Shown here one piece after another: positions 9,733-21,056 of a stretch of 64,000 nucleotides of DNA. Location: sequence record PP430345. One strand, written 5' to 3'. A program made the position numbers and the translations under genes. The notes beneath the pieces were generated by a model. It searched no databases, was not told where the DNA came from, and saw nothing but the letters and a program-made list of their open reading frames with translations. Positions within the stretch are counted from its first letter, which is position 1, and each line of letters starts with the position of its first letter. Source of the stretch: Escherichia phage vB_EcoM-LTH01.

Positions 9733-10040
9733 CTTATCCTACGGTCACACAAGTCTGACCATCTATCTCTGAGCAAGGGATTTCAAAATGTCTCCCGTCC
9801 CCAAATACATCTCGCCACATAGTCTATTCGGAAGCGGGAGTCTATGCACACCCCTTGCGGTAAGTGACCTCACTTTGAGATCAGCATCTTCCTTATTCGA
9901 CGAGTTAAATTCTCTTTAAGGTAGCCAGTGTTCGCAGCACTAACTATGAGGTATCCGTAAGATGATTTCAGTCATCTACCGAAAAATTACACCAAGCAAC
10001 TACCTTAAAGAGAACTTCTTAGTAAAGGCCCTTGCGAGCC

Positions 10041-10421
10041 TTAATCTTCACCTTCTGCCATTTTATACTCACGAATCTGAGTAGTTAATGGAATAGCATC
10101 TTTAAATGCATCAGAAGGGCCTTGATGAGTTTCTGAATTTGCAGAAGTAGTTCCTCCTGCCAGATCCTCTTCATTATCTTCCATTGTGTACAGATTGTTT
10201 GCCTTTTCAGCTTGCTCAAGAATATACTTCGCAGTAGTTTCTTTAACTTTCTCTGTACCGGAAGTCAGTAGACCTTCCAGAGTTTTAATTGCTTGAGGAG
10301 TAAGTCTTGCAAACTCGGAACGAGCATGAAGAATTGCTCTCTCAGTATTGATTGCAATGCTTTCCTCTGTAGTAGGCCGACCGCGTTTTCGAGTAACGAT
10401 TTCAGCTTTAGCCATAAACAC
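10041..10421 (-). CDS. hypothetical protein with AT-hook-like KRGRP motif
   Basis: 126-aa ORF inside the tRNA region; N-terminal RKRGRPTTEE. Confidence 0.4.
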   Translation of the reverse strand: MFMAKAEIVTRKRGRPTTEESIAINTERAILHARSEFARLTPQAIKTLEGLLTSGTEKVKETTAKYILEQAEKANNLYTMEDNEEDLAGGTTSANSETHQGPSDAFKDAIPLTTQIREYKMAEGED

Positions 10422-10607
10422 CTCAATTCAGTCGATATAACTATATTAGCAGTATAATAGGATTATGTCAAGAACTTATTGAAATGTATTAAGAAATGAA
10501 ATGGGGGTGCGCCGTTTCTGCTGTAATCTACGTCGTTATCGTTGAGGGAACTCGTAGTCAGGGAACATCAGTCCGACGACTTATCGGGAGCGACCCGACT
10601 TCTTATG

Positions 10608-10682
10608 TGGTGGCCCTGGGTGGAATCGAACCACCGTCTGGCGATTATGAGTCGCTTGCTTGAACCGTCCAGCTACAGGGCC
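10608..10682 (-). tRNA. tRNA-Met (anticodon CAT)
   Basis: Acceptor GGCCCTG/CAGGGCC, anticodon loop CTCATAA, T-arm GGTGG-TTCGATT-CCACC, CCA encoded. Confidence 0.75.
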
Positions 10683-10697
10683 TGTATTTAAAAGAAC

Positions 10698-10782
10698 TTA
10701 GCGCGGGAGGAAGGACTCGAACCTTCATACTCCAATTACTCGATTAACGACGGTTTAGAAGACCGTTGAGATACACCCGCGC
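10698..10782 (-). ncRNA. tRNA-like element (Arg-TCT-like anticodon arm) lacking a recognisable D-arm
   Basis: Closing 10-bp stem TTAGCGCGGG/CCCGCGCTAA, canonical anticodon arm ACGGT-CTTCTAA-ACCGT, T-arm GAAGG-TTCGAGT-CCTTC, ~24-nt insert before T-arm; no 3' CCA encoded. Confidence 0.3.
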
Positions 10783-17788: not shown

Positions 17789-18526
17789 TTGAAATACAAT
17801 GAATTGAGTACTGATCAAAAAACCTTTATTTCCGAGATGATTGATGTTAAGGGCAATAGCTTCTTTCGGGAAGCAGCAGAGCGAGTAAAAAATTGGAATT
17901 TTGTTGCTCGTGGTTTTCATGACTTCTCTGAAGATGTTTCAAAATTCCAAAAAACTCTTGTTATGGAAGAGTACAATGAACTTTATGATCTTGGTTTAAC
18001 TAAAAAGAATCGTAAGGAAATCATAGATGCACTTTGCGACTTGTTTGTAGTTGGATCATATTACAACTTCTTGAAAGGTGGTTCTGAAAACATCTGTCCT
18101 GCTGACAATGTTGGTACGTATAATCTGACTTCGCTTTATCGAACTCTTGATCAATTTATCGAGAGTGACAATACAAACGGGATCGTTATGGCGGTTGTTG
18201 CAATCATGCAGAACTCCAACTTTAATGCTCATCGTGCTTTAAATGAGGTTTTGGATTCAAATGATTCCAAGATCCCAACCGTGAAAGAATTTACAGAAGG
18301 TTTCTACAAGACGTATTACTTTTTTGCAGAAGCTGATTTTGATCTTGATGCCATGATGCGTTTGGAAGCAGAACAGATTGAACTGCGTAACCGTAACCGT
18401 TATCATGGTGTGAAGGGAAGTATCGTAAAAGGTGGTGATGGTATGGATCGAGTAGTATTTAAAGATAAGAACGGCAAGATCATGAAGCCGATCACTTATT
18501 TTGAAGCAAACCTAGAGGGAATGTAA
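17789..18526 (+). CDS. hypothetical protein (weak MazG-like all-alpha NTP pyrophosphatase resemblance)
   Basis: 245 aa; MEEYNELYD...IIDALCDLFVV resembles EExxE...D motif; TTG start. Confidence 0.3.
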   Translation: MKYNELSTDQKTFISEMIDVKGNSFFREAAERVKNWNFVARGFHDFSEDVSKFQKTLVMEEYNELYDLGLTKKNRKEIIDALCDLFVVGSYYNFLKGGSENICPADNVGTYNLTSLYRTLDQFIESDNTNGIVMAVVAIMQNSNFNAHRALNEVLDSNDSKIPTVKEFTEGFYKTYYFFAEADFDLDAMMRLEAEQIELRNRNRYHGVKGSIVKGGDGMDRVVFKDKNGKIMKPITYFEANLEGM

Positions 18527-18529
18527 TTA

Positions 18530-18706
18530 ATGCCGTTGTATTCTTACAAATGTGAAAAATGTGGTGAAGTTTTCGATCAAAATAGAAAGATCGCAGAACG
18601 TGAAAATGCTCCTTGCAAGTGTGGAGAGATTGCAGTAAAATGTTTGTCTGCTCCACGAGGAATTAAAAACGGTTATTGTGACCAGGGTAAAATGTTTGTA
18701 CGATAG
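18530..18706 (+). CDS. zinc-ribbon protein (FmdB-like CxxC...CxxC)
   Basis: 58-aa ORF missing from the ORF track: MPLYSYKCEKCGEVF...PCKCGE. Confidence 0.45.
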   Translation: MPLYSYKCEKCGEVFDQNRKIAERENAPCKCGEIAVKCLSAPRGIKNGYCDQGKMFVR

Positions 18707-18714
18707 GGGGAATT

Positions 18715-19059
18715 ATGAATCAAGAAAAAGATGTTGAAAAACCTGGCTTACCTGTGTATGATGGTTCTCAGACTAAAATTTCTTTTGATGGTTTAGTTAT
18801 TACGGGTCTTGCAAGTGGTAAAAAATATGCTCGTCGTCCAAACGGTTATCATGAGATCTATGTCAGTGCATTAAGTCCTTTTGTCCGTCAGTTCCAAATT
18901 GGACTAAAAGGTAATTTAACCTTGAAGATCCATACGGGTTATGAAACATTTGCAACGTGTACTTTACCTTGTGAAACTGTAGCTCTGCTTGTGTCAGAGA
19001 TCAGTGATGAAATCCCAGTCTTTCAGGTTGTTTTTAAAGAACTTAAAAATCCTGCTTGA
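18715..19059 (+). CDS. hypothetical protein
   Basis: 114-aa ORF. Confidence 0.45.
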   Translation: MNQEKDVEKPGLPVYDGSQTKISFDGLVITGLASGKKYARRPNGYHEIYVSALSPFVRQFQIGLKGNLTLKIHTGYETFATCTLPCETVALLVSEISDEIPVFQVVFKELKNPA

Positions 19060-19144
19060 CATAAGATATTGAATGGGGTATTCTTACCCCATCGAAGCAA
19101 AGAAGTTAACTTACTATTTAAACATTAAAGAGGAGAAATACAAA

Positions 19145-19456
19145 ATGGCTAAATCTAAAACTGACCTGATCACTACCCTGCCTTCTGACCTGGAAGTTCG
19201 TAAGCGTCTGGCTAACATTGTTCAGGAAGGTGTTGAAGCTGTTCGTCGTCAGAAAGATGCTGCTGAAGATCTGAAAAGCATCCTGGCGATCACTAAAGAA
19301 GACCTGAACATCGACCCTAAATTCCTACGTACCCTGATCAACGGTGAATATGATAAGCAAGATGCAGCAGAGAAGAAACGTGCAGCGCTTGAAAGCCAGA
19401 TTGAACAACTGAACGAACTTGATATCTTGATGGGCCGTGAAGTTGGTGAAGAATAA
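19145..19456 (+). CDS. hypothetical small acidic protein with strongly optimised codon usage
   Basis: Start at ATG 19145 with AAAGAGGAGAAA RBS; CTG/CGT/GAA-dominated codons unlike neighbours. Confidence 0.5.
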   Translation: MAKSKTDLITTLPSDLEVRKRLANIVQEGVEAVRRQKDAAEDLKSILAITKEDLNIDPKFLRTLINGEYDKQDAAEKKRAALESQIEQLNELDILMGREVGEE

Positions 19457-19496
19457 TATAAAGTTAATATCTTAAACTTCTATAAGGAGAAATTCT

Positions 19497-19718
19497 GTGA
19501 ATATCAAAGAAGTTAATCCAGGGCAGACAGTTAAGTTCAACCCACTGGGTAATTATGAGGATCGCTATAATTTGTACGGTGTTCAAGTTGGTGATACAGG
19601 TGTTGTTGAATTCGTTGATGAAGAATGTGAATATGTCACTGTTGCATTCACACGTCAGGACGGTGTTATCGTTGATGGTTTCTACGCAGAAGCTGAAGAT
19701 TTAGAACTCGTAGCTTAA
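19497..19718 (+). CDS. hypothetical protein
   Basis: 73 aa, GTG start after AAGGAG. Confidence 0.4.
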   Translation: MNIKEVNPGQTVKFNPLGNYEDRYNLYGVQVGDTGVVEFVDEECEYVTVAFTRQDGVIVDGFYAEAEDLELVA

Positions 19719-19781
19719 GTAACGATCGGGCCACATTAGTGTGGCCCTTATAATGAAAAATACAAAAAAGGAGATACAAAT

Positions 19782-20024
19782 ATGAATATTAATTTTAACG
19801 ACGCAACTTACGAAAAACTGAAATACCTGGCTACTCTGGAAGGTCGATCAGTTGCAGCGTATATCTCCCAAAAGATGGATGAGCTTACAGGTCAACTGGT
19901 AAATGTTGAATATTCACTGAATGATATTCCAGAAGGTACGCCTCTTGCTCATATGGATCTAACTCCAAAGCCACGAATCGTAGATCGTGACACTGATGAA
20001 CAAGATGGTTACGCAAATTGGTAA
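19782..20024 (+). CDS. putative ribbon-helix-helix DNA-binding protein
   Basis: N-terminal ATYEKLKYLATLEGRSVAAYISQKMDEL resembles Arc/CopG-type RHH. Confidence 0.35.
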   Translation: MNINFNDATYEKLKYLATLEGRSVAAYISQKMDELTGQLVNVEYSLNDIPEGTPLAHMDLTPKPRIVDRDTDEQDGYANW

Positions 20025-20033
20025 AAATTTTTA

Positions 20034-20058
20034 AGCCGCCCTTCGGGGCGGTTTTTCT
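20034..20058 (+). terminator. rho-independent terminator
   Basis: GCCGCCCTTCGGGGCGG hairpin then T5. Confidence 0.7.
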
Positions 20059-20069
20059 TTATCTATCTC

Positions 20070-20097
20070 TTGACACCTGCCTCCAGTTCTGTATAAT
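20070..20097 (+). promoter_or_regulatory. sigma70-like promoter
   Basis: TTGACA, 16-bp spacer, TATAAT. Confidence 0.55.
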
Positions 20098-20126
20098 ACC
20101 TATATCAACCAACAACAGGAGATAAA

Positions 20127-20315
20127 ATGAATATTAAACTTACAAAAGAAATGATTGCCGTGTTTATGCAAATTTCGTCAGTTCGTGATGGGATGAGTAA
20201 AGAATCTAAGAGTATTAAGTTACCTGAAGTTGACTCTCTCGTAACACTTCTTGAAAATGTTGGAGCACTTATTCTTCGTGAAATGACCAAGCAAGATTCT
20301 ACTACAGAGGGGTGA
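20127..20315 (+). CDS. hypothetical protein
   Basis: 62-aa ORF with AGGAG RBS directly downstream of promoter. Confidence 0.4.
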
Positions 20316-20319
20316 TCAA

Positions 20320-20784
20320 TTGAAAACTTTTAAAGAACGTATGGAATTGTTAGATAAAGCTTTGTCTCGTGAAACTCCAGAGAGTTTGTTTGAAAAACTA
20401 CAGTCATACGGAAATGCTGATTACTCTTTCGAAGATATGATGGATGAGATTCCTGAGATCTGTTGGCAAACATGTTATTGGAATAACGATCAAAAAGTTC
20501 AACGTACTATTGTATGTGCAGCTAATCGGTTTAAATTGAAAGATGGTGGAACTCTGATTATCCCTGGATCTCGTCATTACTCTAAGGATATGGCAGAAGT
20601 GCTTGATGTGGTGGGGCCACAATTAGTATCTCAGCAAGTTTGTGGAGACGATCAAGGCTTTATCGACCAATACGGTAATTATTGGAATCGTGAAGAAGCA
20701 ATGATTATTGCAACTTATGCCGGACAGGTACGTATCGAACGTGGTGGAAGTGAGAAAGAACTTTACTCGGAGGACCTTTACTGA
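20320..20784 (+). CDS. hypothetical protein
   Basis: 154-aa ORF. Confidence 0.4.
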
Positions 20785-21056
20785 TGAACACTAAACAGCT
20801 TACTATTGAAGCTTTGCAGCTTAAGATAAAACAAATCGAGTATCTTAACCAGATGATGAAAGAGGGTTGGGGTACGTATACTAATCAGCCTGCCTGGGAG
20901 GCTTTAGGTCATCCATACCTGAACGATGCTTGTAATGGTAATATTCCTCGTGATGGGTTGAAACCTTTCTTACGGGATATGTACATTAAGGTTAACGAAG
21001 AGATCATTGATTCCCTTTACTATCAGATCAGGAAACTCGAAAATGAGAGTAATTGA
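20784..21056 (+). CDS. hypothetical protein
   Basis: 90-aa ORF. Confidence 0.4.
   Translation: MNTKQLTIEALQLKIKQIEYLNQMMKEGWGTYTNQPAWEALGHPYLNDACNGNIPRDGLKPFLRDMYIKVNEEIIDSLYYQIRKLENESN

What the first reader, a model, noticed from the sequence alone, without database searches (positions are those of the whole stretch)
19145..19456. Small acidic early gene with atypically optimised codon usage
This 103-aa ORF uses almost exclusively host-preferred codons (CTG, CGT, GAA, AAA, GGT) and has a strong AAAGAGGAGAAA RBS, in contrast to the AT-rich codon usage of surrounding genes, suggesting very high expression or recent acquisition from a host-like source.
Basis: seen in the sequence. Interest (0 to 1): 0.35.

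Follow-up and report, generated by a model that had tools for sequence, protein, structure and literature searches.

The report
Abundant DsbA/GapR-like phage DNA-binding protein
This small phage gene really is written almost entirely in the host's preferred codons, as heavily as the phage's capsid genes, because it encodes a relative of phage T4 DsbA and bacterial GapR, a small DNA-binding protein that the phage probably makes in very large amounts; it was not borrowed from the host.

Summary
ORF 19145-19456 (103 aa) has an E. coli CAI of 0.64, against a window mean of 0.30 (sd 0.095). None of 200,000 synonymous resamplings reached that value.

Only the major head gene (0.70) and the head-decoration gene (0.68) score higher. 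The next gene scores 0.46. GC3 is ordinary (0.40), so the bias reflects selection for efficient translation, not foreign base composition. The Shine-Dalgarno site is good but unexceptional (rank 25 of 109).

The window comes from a Vequintavirinae coliphage of the proposed genus Septuagintavirus, 96% identical to phage A5-4.

- **Family.** The protein belongs to phrog_639, the PHROG that holds phage T4 DsbA. Its distant relatives reach Pfam Phage_DsbA.
- **Conserved bias.** Orthologues in four other Vequintavirinae phages rank 1st to 3rd locally in CAI. T4 dsbA ranks second, behind gene 32.
- **Conserved signals.** Four of those five relatives keep their own consensus TTGACA promoter upstream of the gene.

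I read it as an early, very abundant, GapR-type dsDNA clamp. It probably acts as a phage nucleoid-associated protein, not as a low-copy regulator. It is a new member of a known kind and of moderate interest.

The parts
19056..19084 (+). Sigma-70-type promoter TTGACA-17 nt-TATTCT. The predicted transcript start is near 19091.
   Evidence: Consensus scan, 10 of 12 matches. An equivalent TTGACA promoter lies 60-90 nt upstream of the orthologue in UPEC06 (-10 TATTAT), CR9 (CATAAT), Salmonella R7 and Klebsiella KpS8 (both TATACT). Function is inferred, not measured.
19130..19135 (+). Shine-Dalgarno GAGGAG, 9 nt upstream of the ATG.
   Evidence: Read from the sequence. Duplex energy with the anti-SD is -9.1 kcal/mol, rank 25 of 109 window genes.
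19145..19456 (+). CDS of 103 aa. It encodes a DsbA/GapR-superfamily small all-helical protein with extreme host-optimal codon usage.
19497..19718 (+). Downstream ORF of 73 aa (GTG start, own SD), probably co-transcribed. Function unknown.
   Evidence: phrog_7871, unknown function, and no Pfam hit. CAI 0.445, among the highest of the non-head genes. No promoter or terminator was scanned between it and the DsbA-like gene. It is not related to T4 gp33.
19782..20024 (+). Third ORF of the unit, 80 aa. The N-terminus looks like a ribbon-helix-helix by eye.
   Evidence: phrog_12907, unknown function. 60% identical to the gene directly downstream of the CR9 orthologue, which has CAI 0.588. The ribbon-helix-helix reading is my inspection only.
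20033..20064 (+). Intrinsic-terminator-like hairpin (9 bp stem, 6 GC pairs) plus a T-run that closes the three-gene unit.
   Evidence: Terminator scan. A perfect TTGACA-16-TATAAT promoter follows at 20070-20097.

Best explanation
The gene encodes the Vequintavirinae version of phage T4 DsbA. DsbA is a roughly 100-residue, all-helical, net-acidic dsDNA-binding protein of the GapR superfamily.

**Shown here.**
- Family membership, by sequence profiles and by fold.
- Codon optimisation at capsid-gene level.
- Conservation of the codon bias across Vequintavirinae and in T4, and of a private consensus -35 promoter across four of the five Vequintavirinae relatives examined.
- Unusually strong protein conservation.

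**Inferred.**
- Host RNA polymerase transcribes the gene from its own strong promoter soon after infection.
- The mRNA is translated very efficiently from the host tRNA pool, because it avoids the codons served by the phage's own tRNAs.
- The protein accumulates to stoichiometric, 'structural' amounts.
- By analogy with GapR it assembles into a tetrameric ring or clamp whose lysine-lined channel encircles duplex DNA. Binding would be largely sequence-non-specific, with a preference for AT-rich or overtwisted DNA.
- It would therefore coat or track along the rapidly replicated and transcribed phage genome as a phage nucleoid-associated protein. That would ease topological stress, possibly by helping host gyrase and topo IV, or keep the phage DNA accessible.

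It probably does not act as a low-copy, site-specific regulator. These phages lack T4 gp33, gp55 and gp45, so the role cannot be the gp33-linked late-transcription role once proposed for T4 DsbA.
For: **Family.**
- phrog_639 at E 3.3e-19 over the full length. T4 DsbA falls in the same PHROG at E 2.1e-40 and in PF11126 at E 4e-41.
- A profile search of 1.84 billion cluster representatives finds only 48, and all but one weak local match in a 1,033-aa protein are small proteins. 14 of 45 scanned hit PF11126 (best 53 bits against a cut-off of 25) and 2 hit GapR_DNA-bd.
- The bridging member P0107 is 41% identical to T4 DsbA.
- hhalign of the close family against T4-type DsbA gives E 3e-5.

**GapR link.**
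- The top seven PDB hits of the family profile are all GapR, E 1.4e-3 to 1.3e-2, collinear over about 65 residues.
- The only PDB hits of the T4 DsbA profile are GapR.
- The DsbA-GapR homology is stated in PMC7824862 and PMC7349988.
- GapR Lys42, 49, 56 and 59 align with K44, K51 (invariant), K59 and R62 (my mapping of the alignment).
- GapR is itself net negative and binds DNA through channel lysines (PMC6853979). The acidic pI is therefore no objection.

**Abundance proxies.**
- CAI 0.642, matched only by the major head and decoration genes.
- Orthologue CAI and local rank: CR9 0.663 (1st of 51 local genes), Salmonella R7 0.604 (1st of 50), rV5 0.471 (1st of 68), KpS8 0.506 (3rd of 52). T4 dsbA 0.423, 2nd of 41 behind gene 32.
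- T4 DsbA MS intensity reaches 1.2-1.7e9. That is close to tail sheath and tube and 5-10 times RNase H, despite only 89 aa.
- It is the most conserved protein of its neighbourhood: 90% identical to CR9, against 72% for the ligase and 28-78% for the others.
- Promoters are conserved.

**No T4 late-transcription partners.**
- tblastn with gp33 finds nothing at E<1 in the window plus A5-4 bases 1-100,000.
- The rV5 paper reports no gp33, gp45 or gp55 homologues (PMC3606486).
Against: - No expression or binding data exist for this phage. Codon bias, promoter and SD are proxies.
- The window protein does not itself reach PF11126 or PF10073 at E<=1. The link is transitive.
- The AF2 model is of medium confidence (pLDDT 75, pTM 0.44). 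It shows one long second helix where GapR has two short ones.
- Oligomeric state could not be modelled.
- T4 DsbA binds DNA weakly (micromolar Kd) and is non-essential (PMC2988020). A major architectural role is therefore unproven even in T4.
- Stimulation of topoisomerases is pure analogy.
Confidence: 0.6

Rival explanations
1. It is a site-specific transcriptional regulator, as the databases label it ('transcriptional regulator', 'late transcription'). It would bind a few promoters of the phage and switch them on or off.
For: - PHROG 639 and RefSeq (CR9, CR8, KpS8) carry this label.
- T4 DsbA was reported to bind AT-rich sites overlapping two late promoters and to enhance late transcription (Gansz 1991, cited in PMC2988020).
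- The rV5 paper found a T4-late-promoter-like motif upstream of late genes.
Against: - Regulators needed in a few copies are not normally codon-optimised to capsid-protein level.
- T4 DsbA had micromolar affinity and no effect in the defined late-transcription system (PMC2988020).
- The partner proteins gp33, gp55 and gp45 are absent.
- The nearest structural relative, GapR, binds DNA non-specifically through a channel.
- A nucleoid-associated protein can still modulate transcription, so this rival overlaps with the best explanation.
Confidence: 0.2
2. It is a recently acquired host-like gene. Its codon usage would reflect its previous genome and not selection in the phage.
For: - Its codons are those of highly expressed E. 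coli genes and differ from its neighbours.
- Its overall GC is 0.449, against 0.412 for the window.
Against: - GC3 is 0.40, like the rest of the window.
- No bacterial chromosomal homologue was found. Hits named as bacterial sit on phage-sized contigs of 142-150 kb.
- The whole superfamily search returns small proteins, with one weak local match in a 1,033-aa protein as the only exception.
- Synteny and codon bias are conserved across Vequintavirinae phages.
- The phage's own capsid genes use the same codons.
- There are 26 synonymous differences from the closest other phage lineage examined, CR9.
Confidence: 0.03
3. It is an abundant acidic early decoy or DNA mimic, in the manner of T7 Ocr. 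It would titrate a host restriction or defence protein instead of binding DNA.
For: - It is small, acidic (pI 4.9) and probably early, abundant and helical.
- It sits near genes annotated as anti-restriction.
- It has a variable acidic C-terminal tail.
Against: - Net charge is only -5. Conserved residues include many K and R: K5, R19, K37, K51, K77, K78, R79 and R98 are invariant.
- It is homologous to two experimentally confirmed DNA-binding proteins, which are themselves net acidic.
- No Ocr- or ArdA-like hit appeared in the Pfam, PDB or fold searches.
Confidence: 0.07
4. It is a virion or packaged DNA-condensing protein. That would explain why it shares codon bias with the head proteins.
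For: - The only genes with equal CAI are the major head and decoration genes.
- The upstream neighbour matches a PHROG called 'virion structural protein'.
Against: - It lies in the early/replication region behind a sigma-70-type promoter.
- rV5 orthologue gp158 (102103-102408, 101 aa) carries no 'MS evidence' flag in the rV5 virion proteome table, whereas neighbouring gp152 does (PMC3606486 Table S3).
- T4 DsbA appears as early RNA and middle protein.
Confidence: 0.05

Closest known systems
Phage T4 DsbA (P13320; Pfam PF11126 Phage_DsbA; phrog_639)
   Same: - Same PHROG.
- Similar size (89 aa against 103 aa), all-helical and net acidic (pI 5.0 against 4.9).
- Collinear core motif ...IKDI...AK-ELGVD-K.F..L.
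- Pre-replicative gene with elevated codon bias: rank 2 of 41 locally, behind gene 32.
- Abundant in infected cells.
   Different: - Direct identity is too low for Pfam PF11126 to score the window protein. hhalign covers only residues 20-67.
- T4 dsbA overlaps and is translationally coupled to gene 33 (PMC2988020). Here there is no gene 33, and the downstream gene is unrelated.
- The gene has its own sigma-70-type promoter.
- There is an extra conserved N-terminal LPSD motif and a longer C-terminal helix ending in ILMGR plus an acidic tail.
- The codon bias is much more extreme (0.64 against 0.42).
Caulobacter crescentus GapR (UPF0335/DUF2312, Pfam PF10073; PDB 6jyk, 6cg8, 6ozx)
   Same: - Long N-terminal helix followed by C-terminal helical segment(s).
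- Net negative protein with conserved basic residues at aligned positions: K42/K49/K56/K59 against K44/K51/K59/R62.
- GapR is an abundant nucleoid-associated protein that clamps AT-rich or overtwisted DNA and stimulates gyrase and topo IV (PMC7349988).
   Different: - GapR is a cellular alpha-proteobacterial protein. This one is a virulent-phage protein.
- Sequence similarity is marginal (E about 1e-3, and only with the broad family profile).
- The model shows one continuous second helix instead of two short ones.
- Tetramer formation, DNA clamping and topoisomerase stimulation are untested.
Other abundant phage-encoded DNA-coating proteins: T4 gp32, Bacillus phage SPO1 TF1 (HU-like), T4 MotB
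   Same: - The logic is the same: early or middle phage proteins made in stoichiometric amounts to coat phage DNA.
- T4 gene 32 is the only gene that out-scores dsbA in CAI in its 30-kb region.
- There is an acidic C-terminal tail as in gp32. This comparison rests on my own knowledge.
   Different: - The folds are unrelated (OB-fold SSB, HU fold) and so are the substrates (ssDNA for gp32).
- No homology was detected. This is an analogy only.

Membership tests
T4 DsbA family (phrog_639 / Pfam PF11126 Phage_DsbA) | Significant full-length match to the family profile. | tested here: met
   phrog_639 at E 3.3e-19, residues 1-99 on profile positions 1-93 of 95. T4 DsbA itself matches at E 2.1e-40. 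All 45 relatives fall in phrog_639.
T4 DsbA family (phrog_639 / Pfam PF11126 Phage_DsbA) | Match to the curated Pfam model PF11126 above its gathering score. | tested here: not met
   - The window protein has no PF11126 hit at E<=1.
- Support is transitive only. 14 of 45 relatives found by its profile hit PF11126, and some are above the 25-bit cut-off (P0107 at 53.4 bits).
- hhalign of A1 against T4-type DsbA gives probability 73%, E 3.1e-5.
- It is therefore a divergent subfamily outside the present Pfam boundary.
T4 DsbA family (phrog_639 / Pfam PF11126 Phage_DsbA) | Small (about 90-100 aa) all-alpha protein. | tested here: met
   103 aa. The AF2 model has helices 5-9, 16-54 and 58-95, with pLDDT 75.
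T4 DsbA family (phrog_639 / Pfam PF11126 Phage_DsbA) | Gene lies immediately upstream of, and overlaps, gene 33 (translational coupling conserved in T4-related phages, PMC2988020). | tested here: not met
   - The downstream gene is phrog_7871, of unknown function, and is separated by 40 nt.
- tblastn with T4 gp33 finds nothing below E 1 in the window plus A5-4 bases 1-100,000.
- rV5 lacks gp33, gp45 and gp55 (PMC3606486).
T4 DsbA family (phrog_639 / Pfam PF11126 Phage_DsbA) | Binds double-stranded DNA. | not testable with these tools
   This needs EMSA or ChIP. Conserved basic residues are the only hint.
GapR / UPF0335 (Pfam PF10073 GapR_DNA-bd) | Sequence match to the GapR profile or to GapR proteins. 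| tested here: inconclusive
   - The window protein has no PF10073 hit, and the close-family profile A1 has no GapR hit in the PDB at E<=10.
- The broad family profile A2 has its top 7 PDB hits all on GapR, E 0.0014-0.013.
- 2 of 45 relatives hit PF10073 at E 0.001.
GapR / UPF0335 (Pfam PF10073 GapR_DNA-bd) | Monomer fold: one extended N-terminal helix plus two short C-terminal helices. | tested here: inconclusive
   - Foldseek found nothing significant.
- The model has one long second helix.
GapR / UPF0335 (Pfam PF10073 GapR_DNA-bd) | Tetrameric ring with a lysine-lined channel that encircles DNA. | not testable with these tools
   - Only single-chain prediction was available.
- GapR K42, K49, K56 and K59 align with K44, K51, K59 and R62 (my mapping).
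- Whether these are among the six channel lysines of PMC6853979 was not verified.
GapR / UPF0335 (Pfam PF10073 GapR_DNA-bd) | Preference for AT-rich or overtwisted DNA and stimulation of type II topoisomerases. | not testable with these tools
   These are biochemical properties described in PMC7349988.
GapR / UPF0335 (Pfam PF10073 GapR_DNA-bd) | High cellular abundance, as expected of a nucleoid-associated protein. | tested here: inconclusive
   Only proxies are available: capsid-level CAI, a conserved strong promoter and T4 DsbA proteome intensity. No measurement exists for this phage.

The most novel reading that the evidence does not exclude
DsbA-like proteins may be the 'chromatin' of large virulent coliphages. 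On this reading a GapR-type ring is made at capsid-protein levels from the first minutes of infection and coats the replicating phage genome. It would work independently of any T4-type late-transcription machinery, and it may recruit host gyrase and topo IV, or exclude H-NS and defence nucleases, in phages for which no topoisomerase gene has been reported (none is mentioned in the rV5 genome paper). That would finally assign a function to T4 DsbA, which has been unexplained since 1991. It would also show that the 'transcriptional regulator' label in phage databases is misleading.
Probability: 0.3. Interest if true: 0.55.

Novelty: new member of a known kind. Interest (0 to 1): 0.35.

Why it matters
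T4 DsbA is conserved across T4-related phages, yet it is non-essential in the laboratory and has no established role.

This work adds three points.
- A divergent DsbA subfamily is present throughout Vequintavirinae, phages that lack gp33, gp55 and gp45.
- It is the most codon-optimised non-structural gene in the genome.
- It is the most conserved protein in its neighbourhood.

Together these argue that the family's core job is stoichiometric DNA binding of the GapR type, not late-promoter regulation.

That gives a concrete and cheap experimental handle: quantify the protein, run ChIP, delete the gene, or de-optimise its codons. It also suggests re-annotating phrog_639.

Practically, the gene with its promoter, SD site and codon usage is a natural high-expression cassette for engineering these therapeutic-type coliphages.

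The finding does not reveal a new kind of system.

Tried and rejected
1. **Longest-ORF gene calling.** It put the gene at rank 1, but it had picked a shadow ORF (2053-3249, +) antisense to the capsid gene and so hid the two head genes. I replaced it with a codon log-odds caller.
2. **Direct Pfam scan of the protein.** The only hit was a sub-threshold Sp-DndD match at E 0.055, treated as noise or, at most, a shared helical motif.
3. **Single-sequence and close-family searches of the PDB.** The top hits were designed helical repeats and SSBP2/LUFS domains at E 0.003-0.05. I judged these compositional, because they disappear behind GapR once the broader profile is used.
4. **Foldseek against the PDB.** Nothing scored below E 1.
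5. **5'-to-3' drop in CAI as a family feature or embedded signal.** The drop is 0.82 to 0.46. It is absent in CR9 and rV5, so it is lineage-specific drift. The excess of synonymous differences in the 3' third is only modestly significant (p 0.02).
6. **Virion protein.** The rV5 virion proteome table does not flag the orthologue gp158. The 'predominant' extra protein gp133 is a different gene.
7. **Is the downstream 73-aa ORF a gp33 analogue?** There is no similarity.
8. **Rfam scan of the window.** It found only tRNAs and no RNA element in or near the gene.
9. **Septuagintavirus description paper (PMC11370258).** It says nothing about this gene, codon usage or promoters.

Full report
**1. What the window is.**

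Bases 18000-21000 are 95.9% identical to Escherichia phage A5-4 (OP744025). They are 92-95% identical to phages A73, W70, A7_1 and UPEC06, all Vequintavirinae. PMC11370258 describes these phages as the new genus 'Septuagintavirus': genomes of about 137-145 kb, 41% GC, five tRNAs. The window is 41.2% GC. It carries the head genes, a tRNA cluster and a long rightward block of early, nucleotide-metabolism and replication genes.

**2.

- The ORF at 19145-19456 (+) encodes 103 aa.
- It uses CTG for 9 of 13 Leu, CGT for 7 of 7 Arg, GAA for 12 of 13 Glu, GTT for 5 of 5 Val and AAC for 4 of 4 Asn. It uses no AGA, AGG, ATA, GGA or CCA.
- Its CAI with the Sharp & Li E. coli weights is 0.642.
- Redrawing the same protein's codons from window-wide usage 200,000 times gave a mean of 0.262 and a maximum of 0.471.
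- My first ranking was flawed. A longest-ORF caller chose a shadow ORF antisense to the capsid gene.
- With a codon log-odds caller, the 109 window genes have mean 0.297 and sd 0.095. This gene is third, behind 2119-3114 (0.697) and 3138-3569 (0.681). The next gene scores 0.458.
- PHROGs identify the two leaders as the major head protein and the head decoration protein.
- Adding A5-4 bases 1-100,000 to approximate the whole genome leaves the same three genes isolated at the top of about 282.
- Using the phage's own two head genes as the reference set avoids any reliance on my remembered weights. The gene then scores 0.717, against a mean of 0.356 (sd 0.080) and a next-best of 0.519.
- GC3 is 0.40, the same as its neighbours. 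This is codon choice within a normal base composition.
- The Shine-Dalgarno GAGGAG is real (-9.1 kcal/mol) but ranks only 25th of 109.
- The protein is mildly acidic: pI 4.9, net charge -5.

**3. Anatomy of the locus.**

- A TTGACA-17-TATTCT promoter sits at 19056-19084.
- The ATG at 19073, which GenBank uses for A5-4 and A7_1 to give 127 aa, lies inside that promoter's spacer. All 35 aligned homologues begin at the MAK... start. The 103-aa form is therefore the right one.
- Two small ORFs follow (19497-19718 and 19782-20024). A strong hairpin terminator closes the unit at 20033-20054, and a perfect consensus promoter follows at 20070-20097. This looks like a three-gene unit.
- Equivalent TTGACA promoters stand 60-90 nt upstream of the orthologue in UPEC06, CR9, Salmonella phage R7 and Klebsiella phage KpS8.
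- In rV5 the gene is third in line (gp158) behind the published promoter P156.
- The phage tRNAs read CAA, GGA, CCA, TAY and ATG. The gene uses no GGA or CCA. That fits translation from the host tRNA pool, but this is an inference.

**4. Identity.**

- Pfam does not score the protein. PHROGs places it full-length in phrog_639, 'transcriptional regulator', at E 3.3e-19.
- It has 66 close homologues, 55-98% identical. Those on long contigs sit on phage-sized contigs of about 140-150 kb.
- A profile of 35 of them, searched against 1.84 billion cluster representatives, found only 48. All but one weak local match in a 1,033-aa protein are small proteins.
- Of 45 of those, all fall in phrog_639. Fourteen hit Pfam PF11126 Phage_DsbA (best 53 bits against a cut-off of 25) and two hit GapR_DNA-bd.
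- The bridging member P0107 is 41% identical to T4 DsbA.
- T4 DsbA itself falls in phrog_639 at E 2e-40.
- hhalign of the close family against a T4-type DsbA alignment gives probability 73% and E 3e-5, matching residues 20-67 to 16-63.
- The broad family profile's seven best PDB hits are all GapR: 6cfx, 6cfy, 6jyk, 6cg8, 6ozz, 6k5x and 6ozx, at E 0.0014-0.013.
- The only PDB hits of the T4 DsbA profile are also GapR.
- An AlphaFold2 model (pLDDT 75) shows a long helix 16-54 and a second helix 58-95.
- The literature already states that T4 DsbA is a GapR homologue (PMC7824862; PMC7349988).
- GapR is itself net negative and binds DNA through conserved lysines lining a tetrameric channel (PMC6853979). 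In the HMM alignment, GapR K42, K49, K56 and K59 fall on K44, invariant K51, K59 and R62 of this protein (my mapping).

**5. Why the codon bias.**

The bias is a property of the family and not an accident of this genome.

| Phage | Gene CAI | Rank in its 30-kb neighbourhood |
|---|---|---|
| CR9 | 0.663 | 1st of 51 |
| Salmonella R7 | 0.604 | 1st of 50 |
| rV5 | 0.471 | 1st of 68 |
| KpS8 | 0.506 | 3rd of 52 |
| T4 (dsbA) | 0.423 | 2nd of 41, behind gene 32 |

- Gene 32 encodes the famously abundant ssDNA-binding protein.
- In a published T4 infection proteome, DsbA reaches intensities of 1.2-1.7e9. That is comparable with tail sheath and tube and 5-10 times RNase H, although it has only 89 residues (PMC9697503 Table S3). 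That study classes it as early RNA and middle protein.
- The protein is also the best conserved of its neighbourhood: 90% identical to CR9, against 72% for DNA ligase and 28-78% for the rest. This is the pattern expected for a highly expressed protein.
- The 26 synonymous differences from CR9 in 98 codons exclude recent transfer.
- No bacterial chromosomal homologue turned up.
'Recent acquisition from a host-like source' is not supported.

**6. Mechanism.**

- **Shown:** family and fold, capsid-level codon optimisation, conserved private promoters, and absence of gp33. The rV5 authors also report no gp33, gp45 or gp55.
- **Inferred:** the protein is made early and in stoichiometric amounts. 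Like GapR, it would form a ring or clamp around duplex DNA with little sequence specificity and would act as a phage nucleoid-associated protein on the replicating genome. It might relieve positive supercoiling by assisting host type II topoisomerases (GapR properties: PMC7349988). The rV5 genome paper mentions no phage topoisomerase.
- The classical idea of a late-promoter co-factor tied to gp33 (PMC2988020) cannot apply here, because the partners are missing. That review also notes micromolar affinity and no in vitro effect for T4 DsbA.
- The protein is unlikely to be a virion component. rV5 gp158 carries no MS-evidence flag, whereas neighbouring gp152 does.
- It is unlikely to be an Ocr-type mimic, given the modest charge, the conserved basic residues and the DNA-binding relatives.

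**7. Comparison and novelty.**

- Membership of the DsbA PHROG is met.
- The Pfam PF11126 threshold is not met directly, which makes this a divergent subfamily.
- The T4-specific coupling to gene 33 is not met.
- GapR-superfamily placement is supported by three weak but concordant lines.
- Databases already label orthologues 'transcriptional regulator'. This is a new member of a known kind.
- The new elements are quantitative: it is the most codon-optimised non-structural gene of the genome, and this is conserved across Vequintavirinae and in T4. There is also a functional implication: a stoichiometric DNA-binding role that does not depend on T4 late transcription.

**8. Verdict.**

The explanation is ordinary in kind but gives a useful, testable pointer to the unresolved function of DsbA. 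Interest is 0.35.

Noticed in passing
window 2053-3249 (+) against 2119-3114 (-): A 398-aa ORF with GC3 0.565 lies antisense to the strongly codon-biased major head gene. It is a shadow ORF and it fooled a longest-ORF gene caller, hiding the two head genes with the highest CAI in the genome. ORF 8-745 (+), with GC3 0.69, may be a second shadow ORF.
   Followed up: yes
window 19073-19144; L001 5074-5457: GenBank A5-4 (A54_192) and A7_1 (A71_77) annotate this gene as 127 aa from an ATG that lies inside the promoter spacer. UPEC06 and all other homologues use the 103-aa start. The start is probably mis-annotated in those two records.
   Followed up: yes
window 19145-19456: Codons 1-60 have CAI 0.82 and codons 61-103 have 0.46. 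Synonymous differences from the CR9 orthologue are 10 of 51 in the first part and 16 of 37 in the second (Fisher p 0.02). CR9 and rV5 do not show the gradient. The cause is unknown; it could be relaxed selection, AT drift or old recombination.
   Followed up: partly
window 20318-21000: This stretch is about 78% identical at the nucleotide level to hundreds of T4-like phages. It covers genes annotated 'anti-restriction nuclease' that sit next to motA in T4. This points to gene exchange between Vequintavirinae and Tevenvirinae.
   Followed up: no
window 20033-20097: A strong hairpin terminator (20033-20054) is followed 16 nt later by a perfect consensus sigma-70 promoter, TTGACA-16-TATAAT (20070-20097).
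   Followed up: no
window 19782-20024; L004 14615-14893: This 80-aa ORF has an N-terminus that looks like a ribbon-helix-helix by eye. Its CR9 homologue has the second-highest CAI (0.588) in its 30-kb neighbourhood, but the window copy scores only 0.33.
   Followed up: partly
window 18715-19059: The gene just upstream matches phrog_13903, 'virion structural protein', although it sits among early genes. In rV5, gp152, a similarly small acidic gene nearby, has virion MS evidence.
   Followed up: no
window 9235-10780 (-): The tRNA cluster holds Gln(UUG), Gly(UCC), Pro(UGG), Tyr(GUA) and Met. Rfam also calls a weak tRNA-like sequence at 10702-10780 (35.8 bits) that ARAGORN does not report. Rfam's gathering list lacks the Tyr tRNA at 9646-9732.
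   Followed up: no
L005 11098-11415 (phage rV5_ev156): rV5 encodes a protein similar to a ribosome hibernation promotion factor (S30AE). Its CAI of 0.470 ties with the DsbA-like gene as the highest in that 30-kb region.
   Followed up: no
one search hit list (MG065684, MG065682, MG065666, MG065677): Several records named 'Campylobacter phage' carry an rV5-type copy of this protein. It scores exactly the same against the query as the E. coli rV5-like copies (42.0% identity, identical E-value and bit score), and the genomes are about 135-141 kb. These may be mislabelled or contaminant rV5-like coliphages.
   Followed up: no
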